A stretch of 39,356 bases of DNA from a bacterium (GTDB taxonomy: Bacteria > Patescibacteriota > Microgenomatia > UBA12405 > BS750m-G30), in contig JAGGVZ010000019.1 in NCBI GenBank assembly GCA_021157735.1, positions 1 to 39,356 of the forward strand, written 5' to 3'. Of this stretch, positions 21,410 to 22,883 are shown one piece after another (positions within the stretch are counted from its first letter, which is position 1; the number at the start of each line of letters is the position of its first letter). Below the pieces are notes generated by a model. It was not told the origin of the DNA. It was given only the letters and a program-made list of their open reading frames with translations, and did not search any database. The translations under genes and the position numbers were made by a program.

Positions 21410-22883
21410 CCGACAAACGCCGGCTTTCGGGTGTTGCCAACTTTGCTGACTTGACGGGCAGTGTGTGCAAGAGGCGAGAACGTATTCACCGGGGCCTGCT
21501 GATCCCCGATTACTACCAATTCCAGGTTCATGCAGGCGAGTTGCAGCCTGCAATCCCAACTGAGACCGCTTTTGATGGGATTAGCTCCGCCTCGCGGCTT
21601 GGCAACCCATTGTAGCGGCCATTGTAGGATGTGTGTAGCCCTGGGCATAAGCGTCATGCTGACTTGACGTCGTCCCCTCCTTCCTGTCCGACGTAATGTC
21701 GGACCTGTCCCCTGTGACACGAGTAACACAGGGCAGGGGTTGCGCTCGTTACCGCACTGAAGCGAACGACTCACGTCACGAGCTGACGACAGCCATGCAA
21801 CAGCTGTCCCGCCACTGAGTTTTCTCCTTTCGGAAAAAACATAAGCGGGATGTCAAGCCCAGGTAAGGTTCATCGCTTCGTCTCGAATTGAACCACATGC
21901 TCCACTGGTTGTGCGCCTCCCCGCCAATTCGTTTGAGTTTCAGCCTTGCGGCCGTACTCCCCAGGCGGTCCGCTTAACGCGTTAGCTTCGCCAGTCCGAC
22001 GTAATGTCGGACAAGCTAGCGGACATCGTTTAGGGCCAGGACTACCCGGGTCTCTAATCCGGTTCGCTCCCCTGGCTTTCGTCCCTCAGCGTCAACATAG
22101 TCCTAGCCACCTGCCTTTGCCTTCGGCGTTCCTTGCCATATCCACGGATTTCACCCCTACATGGCAAGTTCCGGTGGCCTCGGCCTAGTTCTAGCTTCCC
22201 AGTCTCCTGCCCTTTTTCTCGGTTAAGCCGAGATCTTTAAAGCAGGACTTAGGAAGCCGCCTACGGACCCTTTACGCCCAGTGAATCCGGATAACACTCG
22301 CGCCCTACGTATTACCGCGGCTGCTGGCACGTAGTTAGCAGGCGCTTTTTCTCCGACGTGAAGTCGGAGTGAGCGGTTTACAACCCGAAGGCCTTCATCC
22401 CGCACGCGGCGTCGCTGCGTCAGGCTTTCGCCCATTGCGCAAGATTCCTAGCTGCTGCCTCCCGTAGGAGTAGGGCCCGTGTCTCAGTGCCCTTGTGGGG
22501 GACCACCCTCTCAGGCCCCCTACCCGTCTTTGCCTTGGTAGGCCGTTACCCTACCAACAAGCTGATGGGCCGCACGCCCCTCCCAAAGCGGGCAGTTACG
22601 CCCTTTACCCCAAAGCTTCGCTTTGGGGAAATTCTAAATTCTAATACCTAAATTCTAAACAACGACTAACAACCAAAACTCACACAATCCAAACGTTTTA
22701 TTTTGGTCATTTAGAACTTCGAGATTGTTTAGGATTTAGGATTTGGAAAATTAGAATTTTCCACAAGGCGAAGCCTTGGGGATTATCCAGGATTACCCCC
22801 GATTTCTCGGGGCTATCCTCGACTTTGGGGTAGGTTCGTACGTGTTACTCACCCGTTCGCCGCTGTCCGACGTCACGTCGGAC
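21410..22883 (-). repeat. Same hairpin family (YCCGAC-loop-GUCGGR) at five 16S helix tips
   Basis: Copies: 21410-21423 (CCGGC-GUUU-GUCGG, h44 tip), 21686-21704 (h40 region), 21994-22012 (h26 region), 22351-22369 (replaces h17), 22865-22883 (h6 tip). The copies at 21686 and 21994 are identical 19-mers (gtccgacgtaatgtcggac). Confidence 0.85.
22608..22781 (-). other. Intervening-sequence-like insertion in the 16S 5' domain: AT-rich ~132-nt inverted-repeat element (22629-22760) flanked by GC mini-hairpins (22608-22628, 22761-22781)
   Basis: Arms cctaaattctaaacaa / ttgtttaggatttagg are complementary, with tandem octamers aaattcta and taggattt. The ends align with the 23S insert: shared acctaaatYctaaacaa, cgactaa, and ttgtttaggattt.ggattt.gaaaattaga. 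Confidence 0.78.

What the first reader, a model, noticed from the sequence alone, without database searches (positions are those of the whole stretch)
21410..22883. The same hairpin sequence also caps five 16S helices, including two identical 19-mers
The stem found in 23S recurs in a separately transcribed gene. It occurs at the tip of h6 (22865), replacing the whole h17 arm (22351), at the h26-region tip (21994), at the h40-region tip (21686), and as a G-U variant CCGGC-GUUU-GUCGG at the h44 tip (21410). The copies at 21686 and 21994 are identical (GUCCGACAUUACGUCGGAC as RNA). Sharing between two different RNAs argues against coincidence or ordinary helix conservation. It argues for sequence homogenisation or a common trans-acting partner. 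All these sites are peripheral, variable helices in reference 16S.
Basis: partly seen in the sequence, partly recalled or inferred. Interest (0 to 1): 0.75.

Follow-up and report, generated by a model that had tools for sequence, protein, structure and literature searches.

The report
One hairpin capping many rRNA helices
In this uncultured Shapirobacteria-like (CPR) bacterium, one 19-base perfect hairpin sits on the tips of 5 helices of 16S rRNA and about 11 of 23S rRNA; related bacteria show the same copy-and-paste pattern, sometimes with a different hairpin sequence, and I found no published description of it.

Summary
The stem CCGAC-N(3-6)-GUCGG occurs 15 times in the window. All 15 lie in the two rRNA genes and none in the other 34.5 kb (shuffles expect 0.34).

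The 16S copies sit at h6, h17, h26, h40 and, as a G-U variant, the h44 tip. The h26 and h40 copies are identical 19-mers.

This is not ordinary helix conservation. In related Shapirobacteria the same helices carry other sequences with compensatory changes. Which helices hold the motif varies between genomes, and one lineage nested inside the clade has lost every copy. In 84 non-CPR 23S genes no 6-bp hairpin stem is used more than twice; here one is used 8 times.

Other CPR lineages reuse their own hairpin (CCCCGC, CCCCGAU, GUCGCC). Distant CPR rRNAs and RNase P RNAs reuse this CCGACG-UNA-CGUCGG hairpin.

Best reading (0.45): a hairpin cassette is copied between tolerant helix tips at the DNA level, and base pairing is then kept by selection. 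The copying mechanism is inferred, not shown.

Rivals are a sequence-specific trans-acting partner, a REP/RAYT-type mobile element (tested, weak support) and convergent selection for stability. The pattern appears undescribed.

The parts
21332..22951 (-). 16S rRNA gene, host of 5 copies
   Evidence: Rfam RF00177, 1398.6 bits, full length
22865..22883 (-). Copy at the h6 tip, GUCCGACGUGACGUCGGAC, on a truncated h6
   Evidence: The centre base is polymorphic between strains (22874 C>G).
22351..22369 (-). Copy replacing h17, CUCCGACUUCACGUCGGAG
   Evidence: L012 has CCCCGAC-ACUAA-GUCGGGG and L010 has CCCCGA-GUAA-UCGGGG at this site.
21994..22012 (-). Copy at h26, GUCCGACAUUACGUCGGAC, identical to the h40 copy and derived in this lineage
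   Evidence: Relatives L010, L012 and L013 all differ here.
21686..21704 (-). Copy at h40, GUCCGACAUUACGUCGGAC. An old site: relatives carry CUCCGAU.., UCCCGAU.. and GUCUGAC.. with compensatory changes.
   Evidence: Strain L004 has GUUAC here (21697 T>C).
21410..21423 (-). h44-tip variant, CCGGC-GUUU-GUCGG, with a G-U pair
   Evidence: Relative L012 and the distant CPR contig L158 have the exact family hairpin at the h44 tip.
9495..12734 (-). 23S rRNA gene, host of about 11 copies
   Evidence: Rfam RF02541, 2385.2 bits, full length
12566..12584 (-). 23S copy at about E. coli 150-176 (H10), CUCCGACGUUACGUCGGAG
12266..12284 (-). 23S copy just 5' of GGUUGUAGGG (H15 region, about E. coli 271), CUCCGACGUUACGUCGGAG
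   Evidence: Also the motif in L007 and L009; decayed to CUUCAAUAUUUAUUGGAG in L008.
11965..11983 (-). 23S copy at H25, GUCCGACGUUAUGUCGGAC
   Evidence: The orthologue in L009 is identical in the stem.
11472..11492 (-). Whole-hairpin insertion near E. coli 1012, GUCCCGACGUUACGUCGGGAC
   Evidence: Present in the window, L007 and L008; absent in L009 and E. coli.
11354..11371 (-). Whole-hairpin insertion near E. coli 1113, CUCCGAC-GUUU-GUCGGAG
   Evidence: Present in the window and L008 (as UCCACC-AGUU-GGUGGA); absent in L007, L009 and E. coli.
11280..11298 (-). 23S copy at H45, CUCCGACGUUACGUCGGAG
   Evidence: Relatives carry other hairpins here; L009 carries an AT-rich insert.
11089..11107 (-). 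23S copy at about E. coli 1360 (H52), UCCCGACGUGAUGUCGGGG
   Evidence: The orthologue in L009 is UCCCGAC-GUUAC-GUCGGGA.
10900..10917 (-). 23S copy at about E. coli 1530 (H58 region), CUCCGAC-GUUU-GUCGGAG
10716..10734 (-). 23S copy on truncated H63, CCUCGACGUCACGUCGGGG, with one U-G pair
10581..10599 (-). 23S copy at the H68 tip, CUCCGACGUUGCGUCGGAG
10311..10329 (-). 23S copy on truncated H78 (L1 stalk), GUCCGACGUCACGUCGGAC
   Evidence: The orthologue in L009 has the same stem.

Best explanation
The hairpin is a self-contained cassette: NUCCGAC-GUNAC-GUCGGAN', which as DNA is the near-perfect palindrome CCGACGT-N-ACGTCGG. It has been copied non-reciprocally from one tolerant stem-loop position to another within the single-copy 16S and 23S genes.

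Each copy replaces the apex of a peripheral helix, caps the stump of a helix that CPR bacteria have truncated (h6, h17, H63, H78), or occasionally forms a new small branch. After copying, selection on the RNA keeps only the base pairing. Loops therefore drift quickly, while stems stay the same or change through G-U intermediates.

Over time this gives concerted evolution: each lineage has its own master hairpin. A lineage in which copying stops lets all copies decay independently.

Shown: the copies, their placement, derived copies identical to older ones, whole-hairpin gains, lineage-specific master hairpins, and a nested loss.

Inferred: that copying happens on DNA, and how. Candidates are replication template switching at extruded hairpins, very short-patch conversion, or a hairpin-specific nuclease or transposase. 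It is also inferred that the caps are merely tolerated or mildly stabilising.
For: 1. Excess and confinement. There are 15 copies, all in rRNA. Across Shapirobacteria loci there are 32 hits in 28.1 kb of rRNA and 1 chance hit in 146.5 kb of other DNA.

2. Identity goes beyond what pairing needs. One 6-bp stem is used 8 times in this 23S. In 84 non-CPR 23S genes the maximum is 1 (80 genes) or 2 (4 genes).

3. Derived copies equal older copies.
- h26 is the motif only in this lineage and is identical to h40 over 19 nt, including the mismatched AUUAC loop. h40 is motif-like in all relatives.
- H45 equals the H10 and H15 copies.
- The flanks share no homology, so the copied unit is the hairpin itself.

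4. Whole hairpins appear at sites that lack any hairpin in L009 and E. coli (about E. coli 1012 and 1113).

5. The palindrome extends into the loop (G-U-N-A-C). RNAfold leaves these bases unpaired in 3 of the 4 pentaloop variants folded and pairs only the G-C in the fourth, so this symmetry fits a DNA-level origin. Template switching is documented to create perfect rRNA stems (PMC8794818).

6. Concerted pattern across CPR. L063 reuses CCCCGC 4 times, L074 and L061 reuse CCCCGAU, and L112 reuses GUCGCC. L168 has 6 family copies in 1.6 kb, of which the 5 scored all have centre base U. The window's perfect copies have centre base U 4 times and A never.

7. L008/L010 sits inside the motif-bearing clade yet has no copy. 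Its sequences at those sites look like independently diverged versions. GC content does not explain this.

8. A strain polymorphism at h40 (AUUAC to GUUAC) moves towards the family consensus.
Against: - No mechanism is known that copies a 19-nt unit between sites 0.3 to 12 kb apart without flanking homology. RecA-type conversion needs longer homology (my own knowledge).
- Orthologous copies in the window and L009 share their site-specific outer base pairs (H25, H78, H52). Those copies have therefore been inherited for a long time with unchanged stems, which could equally mean selection on the stem sequence.
- Confinement to stable RNAs fits an RNA-level function at least as well.
- Only 39 kb of this genome was available.
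- The number of independent copy events that can be polarised is small.
Confidence: 0.45

Rival explanations
1. A sequence-specific trans-acting partner (a protein or RNA acting on the RNA hairpin) selects for the same stem on many surface helices of the stable RNAs. It could be a chaperone, a protective or decorating factor, or a processing enzyme. Lineages co-evolve partner and hairpin, and losing the partner releases all sites at once.
For: - Copies are confined to stable RNAs in Shapirobacteria.
- The same family occurs in RNase P RNAs of other uncultured bacteria: L138, L196 (2 copies), L243 and L214.
- Stems are unchanged at orthologous sites over considerable divergence while loops vary.
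- All copies decayed together in the nested L008/L010 lineage.
- Different CPR lineages have their own master hairpins.
- All sites are peripheral helices. CPR-truncated helices are on the ribosome surface (PMC9297842).
Against: - The conserved part is a perfect A-form stem and the variable part is the loop. This is the reverse of what most hairpin-binding proteins read (my own knowledge).
- The shared odd loop of h26 and h40 and the palindromy inside the loop are not explained.
- No candidate gene is apparent. The genes between 23S and 16S are syntenic in the motif-free L010 too.
- tRNA-like sequences with the anticodon arm replaced by the hairpin look like damage rather than function.
Confidence: 0.25
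2. The hairpin is a REP-like miniature mobile element. It would be moved by a hairpin-specific HUH/Y1 transposase (RAYT) or similar enzyme, and in compact CPR genomes it would survive only at stable-RNA helix tips.
For: - In contig L199, CCGAC hairpins (11 in 13 kb) are modules of GTAG-tagged intergenic arrays. They flank on both sides a gene scoring as REP-associated tyrosine transposase (NF047646, 87.5 bits against a cut-off of 80).
- L174 has 7 intergenic copies.
- Among 119 metagenome instances, GTAG-upstream or CTAC-downstream occurs 28 times against 10 for the mirrored control. 18 instances sit on the apex of longer perfect hairpins.
- RAYT homologues exist in Patescibacteria.
Against: - RAYT orthologues at 69-71% identity (L260-L264) and the two Patescibacteria RAYT loci (L254, L257) have no CCGAC hairpin nearby.
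- No RAYT was found in the window or in any Shapirobacteria locus.
- The rRNA copies lack the unpaired GTAG or CGTC tag.
- There are no intergenic copies in 146 kb of Shapirobacteria DNA.
- One RAYT in about 0.8 Mb of seeded contigs is what chance gives.
- Many singleton metagenome hits may be background, because perfect 9-1-9 palindromes run at about 21 per Mb.
Confidence: 0.12
3. This is ordinary descent plus convergence. CPR rRNAs favour short GC-rich caps with a C-rich 5' arm and a UNA triloop, and the small sequence space makes many caps look alike. No copying and no partner is involved.
For: - Master hairpins of different lineages resemble one another (CCCCGAY..., UNA loops).
- Several sites are inherited, with ordinary compensatory changes in relatives (h40, h17, H68, H10).
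- The hairpins are stable, at -10.5 to -11.9 kcal/mol.
Against: - The sister lineage L008/L010 is under the same architecture yet uses no stem more than once at 6 bp (at most twice at 5 bp).
- Identity extends over 17-19 nt, including loops.
- Whole-hairpin insertions occur.
- Stronger caps such as UUCG on GC stems exist, so this is not the thermodynamic optimum (my own knowledge).
Confidence: 0.13

Closest known systems
REP / REPIN elements and their RAYT transposases (GTAG- and CGTC-tagged palindromic repeats; PMC3733652)
   Same: Both are short (about 20 nt) GC-rich palindromes present in many near-identical copies and able to form RNA hairpins. Both show lineage-specific master sequences. 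In one metagenome contig the same hairpin is a module of GTAG-tagged arrays beside a RAYT gene.
   Different: Here the copies are inside rRNA genes (and RNase P RNA elsewhere) rather than extragenic. They have no unpaired GTAG or CGTC tag and no extragenic copies, and no RAYT was seen. The REP survey paper reports REPs in protein genes but none in rRNA.
rRNA intervening sequences and expansion or variable segments (H25, H45, h6, h9, h17 sites)
   Same: Both occupy the classical tolerant positions at the tips of peripheral helices. This window also has true AT-rich inserts of one family in both rRNAs.
   Different: The hairpins are 14-21 nt caps that mostly shorten or replace helices rather than extend them. 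Nothing suggests they are excised. Intervening sequences are not normally one identical sequence at more than 10 sites.
Template-switch mutations that create perfect RNA stems (Monttinen and Loytynoja 2022, PMC8794818)
   Same: This is a DNA-replication mechanism that makes perfect inverted repeats in rRNA genes in one step. It fits the palindromy that reaches into the loop.
   Different: Described template switches copy nearby sequence. They do not explain the same 19-mer at sites hundreds to thousands of bases apart or in two genes 8.6 kb apart.
Recurrent extra-stable tetraloop hairpins in rRNA (C(UUCG)G, GNRA; my own knowledge of Woese et al. 1990)
   Same: A small set of cap motifs is reused at many helix tips and exchanged during evolution.
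   Different: There the reuse concerns 4-6 nt set by thermodynamics and is universal. Here 17-19 nt including a 7-bp stem are reused, the sequence is lineage-specific, and the loop is the variable part.
GC-rich palindromes of fungal mitochondria (Neurospora PstI palindromes, yeast GC clusters; my own knowledge, not tested here)
   Same: Both are about 18-nt GC-rich perfect palindromes repeated in an AT-richer, reduced genome, and both are found next to or inside tRNA and rRNA genes.
   Different: Those are mostly intergenic or intronic, occur in a different domain of life, and have an unrelated sequence.

Membership tests
REP/REPIN (RAYT-mobilised) | Many dispersed copies in extragenic regions | tested here: not met
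   0 copies in 34.5 kb of non-rRNA window DNA. 1 chance hit inside a coding sequence in 146.5 kb of Shapirobacteria DNA.
REP/REPIN (RAYT-mobilised) | Unpaired conserved tag (GTAG or CGTC) at one foot of the palindrome | tested here: not met
   Flanks of the 12 window 18-19-mers listed (8 in 23S, 4 in 16S) show no common tag. The tag is present only in L199-type intergenic arrays.
REP/REPIN (RAYT-mobilised) | A cognate RAYT gene flanked by the repeats | tested here: inconclusive
   Met in L199. Not met in 4 other RAYT loci. No RAYT in the window or relatives' loci, but only part of each genome is available.
rRNA intervening sequence | Extra sequence that extends a helix relative to relatives | tested here: not met
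   Most copies shorten or replace the helix (h6, h17, H63, H78) or have the same length as in relatives (h40, H68, H10). Only the sites near E. coli 1012 and 1113 are net insertions.
rRNA intervening sequence | Excision from the mature rRNA (fragmentation) | not testable with these tools
   This needs RNA-seq or metatranscriptome data showing RNA ends.
Template-switch-born hairpin | Perfect inverted repeat that can be derived from adjacent sequence in the ancestor | tested here: inconclusive
   Perfect palindromy including loop positions is seen. The source of each copy is another distant hairpin, not adjacent sequence.
Ordinary conserved variable helix | Same sequence inherited across the clade, or variation by independent covariation with no identity between helices | tested here: not met
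   Relatives covary at these helices, but the window reuses one 6-bp stem 8 times against at most 2 in 84 controls.
Binding-site family for a trans-acting factor | A factor that binds the hairpin, and co-variation of factor and site across genomes | not testable with these tools
   Indirect only: stable-RNA confinement, a nested lineage-wide loss, and lineage-specific master hairpins.

The most novel reading that the evidence does not exclude
Each CPR lineage has a dedicated, still unidentified machinery that co-evolves with a master hairpin. The machinery could be a hairpin-specific nuclease or transposase acting on rDNA, or an RNA-binding factor acting on all stable RNAs. It installs or maintains the hairpin on the exposed helix tips of 16S, 23S and RNase P RNA. 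Losing it (as in L008/L010) lets all copies decay. That would be a previously unknown layer of rRNA evolution and possibly of ribosome biology in reduced-genome bacteria.
Probability: 0.3. Interest if true: 0.85.

Novelty: new variant of a known kind. Interest (0 to 1): 0.68.

Why it matters
rRNA variable helices are assumed to evolve independently by point substitutions and compensatory changes. That assumption underlies rRNA alignment, covariation-based structure inference and 16S phylogeny.

Here non-homologous helices of single-copy rRNA genes share one cassette and evolve in concert. This creates false homology between helices, inflates apparent conservation and can mislead alignment and probe design for CPR bacteria.

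If a copying enzyme or a binding partner exists, it would be a new piece of ribosome biology in a group that makes up a large share of bacterial diversity and has pared-down ribosomes and few assembly factors.

The pattern also gives a tractable natural system for asking how new RNA stems arise.

Tried and rejected
1. Chance. Rejected by the shuffles and by 84 control 23S genes.

2. Assembly or adapter artefact. Rejected because three independent assemblies agree, strains differ by single loop bases, and relatives carry G-U and compensated variants. I know of no sequencing adapter with this sequence (my own knowledge).

3. AT mutational pressure as the cause of the motif-free lineage. Rejected: L009 and L030 have lower 23S GC and keep copies.

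4. A clade-specific 23S pattern for the one genome-contig scan. The pattern turned out to be shared with Chloroflexi. It yielded few CPR loci but a useful control set.

5. Reading the metagenome hits as a universal mobile hairpin. The exact 19-mer gave at least 120 hits, 109 of them outside blastn-detectable rRNA (Rfam later placed some of these inside insert-bearing 23S or RNase P RNA). I first read this as pan-bacterial spread, then downgraded it. Perfect 9-1-9 palindromes run at about 21 per Mb in control DNA, so singleton hits of any GC-rich palindrome are expected in a database that large. Only the multi-copy cases are kept as evidence.

6. Viral origin. One hit in IMG/VR, which is chance level.

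7. RAYT link. Followed through 5 RAYT loci and supported only in L199.

8. tRNA mimicry. The tRNA-like genes that carry the hairpin in place of the anticodon arm are not called as tRNAs and look like pseudogenes.

9. Literature. No paper in the library contains the sequence. The CPR ribosome paper never uses the word hairpin.
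Full report
**What is in the window.**
- Rfam finds a full-length bacterial 23S gene (9495-12734, minus strand) and a full-length 16S gene (21332-22951, minus strand). They are separated by 8.6 kb of protein-coding genes. There are three tRNAs and no 5S.
- Homologues of the neighbouring S1 and ATP-grasp proteins are named Candidatus Shapirobacteria or Patescibacteria by their sources. The locus carries T4SS-pilin-like genes of the kind seen in CPR bacteria.

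**Checking the observation.**
- All five 16S sites are as described.
- The Rfam SSU model puts the hairpins at the h6 tip, at h17, at h26 and at h40. At h17, 34 consensus positions are replaced by the 5-nt loop of the hairpin. The alignment to E. coli puts the CCGGC-GUUU-GUCGG variant at the h44 tip.
- The copies at 21686 and 21994 are identical 19-mers.
- CCGAC-N5-GTCGG with at most one mismatch occurs 13 times against 0.34 expected. With loops of 3-6 nt there are 15 perfect-stem hits, 4 in 16S and 11 in 23S. None lies in the other 34.5 kb.
- In 23S the copies sit at about E. coli H10, H15, H25, H45, H52, H58, H63, H68 and H78, plus two small insertions near E. coli 1012 and 1113. The helix names come from my memory of E. 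coli numbering and are approximate.
- The shared unit is NUCCGAC-GUNAC-GUCGGAN'. As DNA it is a palindrome with a single central base. As RNA it folds into a 7-8 bp hairpin of -10.5 to -11.9 kcal/mol.
- Independent ENA and JGI assemblies of the same species carry the same copies.

**Is it ordinary conservation?** I recovered rRNA genes of relatives through the conserved gene neighbourhood:
- L007 and L011 (one genome)
- L008 and L010 (near-identical 23S lengths and hairpins; treated as one lineage)
- L009, L012 and L126 (one genome, GCA_043817235.1)
- L013, L030 and L048

At the same helices these relatives have hairpins of similar size but often different sequence, related by compensatory changes. 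For H10:
- window: CUCCGAC..GUCGGAG
- L008: UCCUACC..GGUAGGG
- L009: CCCCGC..GCGGGG

For h40:
- window: GUCCGAC
- L010: CUCCGAU
- L012: UCCCGAU
- L013: GUCUGAC

So the helices are normal variable helices. What is abnormal is that one sequence fills so many of them. Family copies per genome (CCGAC stem, loop 3-6 nt, with loops to 7 nt, counts 7 in L007):

| Genome | 23S | 16S |
|---|---|---|
| window | 11 | 4 |
| L007 | 6 | not available |
| L009/L012 | 4 | 2 |
| L030 | 4 | not available |
| L008/L010 | 0 | 0 |

The helices that hold the motif differ between genomes. For example, the h44 tip and h17 hold it in L012, while h6 and h26 hold it only in the window.

As a control, I counted the highest number of hairpins sharing one perfect 6-bp stem in each 23S. 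In 84 non-CPR genes the value is 1 in 80 genes and 2 in 4 genes. It is 8 in the window.

**Direction of change.**
- A neighbour-joining tree of 23S gives ((window, L007), ((L030, L009), L008)), with L048 outside.
- The motif-free L008/L010 lineage is therefore nested among motif-bearing genomes. Its sequences at the motif sites look like independently diverged versions, such as CUUCAAUAUUUAUUGGAG, CUCCGCC..GGCGGAG and UCCACC..GGUGGA. Its GC content does not explain this.
- Several copies are old: H15, H25, H52 and H78 are shared by the window and L009 and keep site-specific outer pairs.
- Others are derived in the window lineage. h26 is the motif only here and equals the h40 19-mer down to its mismatched AUUAC loop, although the flanks share nothing. 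H45 equals the H10 and H15 copies.
- Complete hairpins have appeared near E. coli 1012 and 1113, where L009 and E. coli have none.
- Within the species, the two 16S substitutions I consider reliable (others lie at scaffold gaps or contig ends) fall in hairpin loops. One of them turns AUUAC into the family consensus GUUAC.

**Beyond this clade.**
- Other CPR 23S genes reuse their own hairpin: CCCCGC-AUU/UUG-GCGGGG four times in L063, CCCCGAU-UNA-AUCGGGG in L074 and in the Woykebacteria locus L061, and GUCGCC in a Woesebacteria locus. Several other CPR loci reuse none.
- Some of these are rRNAs only 70-79% identical to the window's, and they again carry several family copies: L168 has 6 in 1.6 kb, L198 has 6, L235 has 4 and L158 has 2.
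- Rfam also places the hairpin inside RNase P RNAs. In L138 it sits next to the conserved GAGGAAAGUCC motif (I read this as helix P3). L196 has two copies, and L243 and L214 have one each. It is also inside a group I intron.
- It replaces the anticodon arm of tRNA-like sequences that ARAGORN does not call as tRNAs. It also sits on the apex of terminator-like hairpins.
The RNase P RNA of this organism is not in the window.

**A caution on the metagenome hits.**
- Perfect 9-1-9 palindromes occur at about 21 per Mb in my control loci, five times the random rate and mostly with GC-rich arms. A database of this size is therefore expected to hold many singleton copies of any such 19-mer.
- IMG/VR gave only one hit.
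- I therefore treat single hits as possible background. I rely only on the multi-copy cases and on family members clustering in the seeded contigs.

**The REP/RAYT lead.**
- Contig L199 has 11 CCGAC hairpins in 13 kb. They are modules of GTAG-tagged intergenic arrays on both sides of a 147-aa gene that scores above NCBIfam's cut-off for REP-associated tyrosine transposase.
- That suggested a REP-like element. However, RAYT orthologues at 69-71% identity and two Patescibacteria RAYT loci have no such hairpin nearby.
- No RAYT is present in any Shapirobacteria locus I hold. The rRNA copies lack the REP tag. There are no extragenic copies in 146 kb of Shapirobacteria DNA.
- The published REP survey lists REPs in protein genes but none in rRNA.

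**Interpretation.**
- The data require either a process that places the same cassette on non-homologous helices or a force that holds them to one sequence.
- I favour DNA-level copying followed by RNA-level selection on pairing. The reasons are that derived copies equal older copies including a non-functional-looking loop, that the copied unit ends exactly at the foot of the hairpin, that whole hairpins appear de novo, and that the palindrome reaches into bases the RNA fold largely leaves unpaired.
- Fast loop drift with slow stem change then explains the conserved stem and variable loop without any reader of the stem sequence.
- Template switching is a documented source of perfect rRNA stems (PMC8794818), but its known form is local. 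The long-range step is therefore inferred.
- A trans-acting partner remains a serious rival. The family is confined to stable RNAs, old copies keep their stems over long divergence, and one nested lineage lost all copies at once.

**Comparison with what is known.**
- CPR rRNAs are known to lack h6, h10, h17, H9, H63, H78 and H98 segments and to carry many insertions (PMC9297842).
- That paper does not mention repeated hairpins, and no paper in the searchable library contains the sequence.
- I class the finding as a new variant of known kinds (short palindromic repeat families; concerted evolution). What is unusual is that the repeats live inside single-copy stable-RNA genes and link non-homologous helices.

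Noticed in passing
window 22618-22770 (16S) and about 12350-12520 (23S): A roughly 150-nt AT-rich insert of one family lies in both rRNA genes. In 16S it is in the loop of the helix at about E. coli 184-193 (I read this as h9; 153 nt by the Rfam alignment). In 23S it is near E. coli 227. The two share arms of 31 nt (93.5% identical) and 30 nt (90% identical). Strains differ by 7-nt indels inside it. Short matches occur in the Shapirobacteria loci L030 and L048, and L009 has a similar insert in H45.
   Followed up: partly
window 9495-22951: 16S and 23S are unlinked. 8.6 kb of protein-coding genes lie between them (two large proteins with no Pfam hit, a 7TM_transglut protein, two ATP-grasp proteins and two T4SS-pilin-like proteins). 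tRNA-Ala precedes 23S, an S1 gene follows it, and no 5S is in the window. The arrangement is syntenic in L007, L008 and L010.
   Followed up: partly
window 23148-23221: ARAGORN calls a tRNA-Ile with anticodon TAT just upstream of 16S, on the opposite strand. This is an unusual isoacceptor for bacteria.
   Followed up: no
window about 10010-10095; L007, L008 and L009 at the same site: All four Shapirobacteria 23S genes carry an insertion of about 84-100 nt near E. coli 2368. In the window it ends in a nested hairpin CUCCGAC-G-UUUCGAC-UUU-GUCGAAA-G-CCGGAG that reuses the CGAC/GUCG core.
   Followed up: no
L009 about 8950-9950: The 23S of GCA_043817235.1 has an insertion of about 1 kb near the sarcin-ricin loop that encodes a LAGLIDADG endonuclease (Pfam E = 4e-6). 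Homologous ORFs lie in the 23S-bearing loci L248, L170 and L181. It is probably a homing intron.
   Followed up: partly
L184:1485, L184:about 1880, L187:3030, L190:8908, L225:4959, L249:2834 and 2993: tRNA-like sequences sit next to real tRNA genes, and their anticodon arm is exactly the 19-nt hairpin. ARAGORN and Rfam do not call them. Two loci have tandem copies. They are probably pseudo-tRNAs, but their origin is unknown.
   Followed up: partly
L199:1540-2560; also L174 and L007:about 8420-8445: Intergenic arrays are built from a small vocabulary of GTAG-tagged mini-hairpins: CAGAG-caag-CUCUG, GCAAAGC-uu-GCUUUGC, CCUGCCUG..CAGGCAGG and CCGACG-n-CGUCGG, with AAUCC-type AT-rich repeats. One of these (CCUGCC-GACA-GGCAGG) also forms an insertion in the 23S of L007. 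The CAGAG hairpin flanks RAYT genes in two Patescibacteria loci (L254, L257).
   Followed up: partly
L008 and L010 23S and 16S: A lineage nested inside the motif-bearing clade has no copy at all. Several of its caps look like transition-decayed versions of the motif. What changed in this lineage is unknown.
   Followed up: partly
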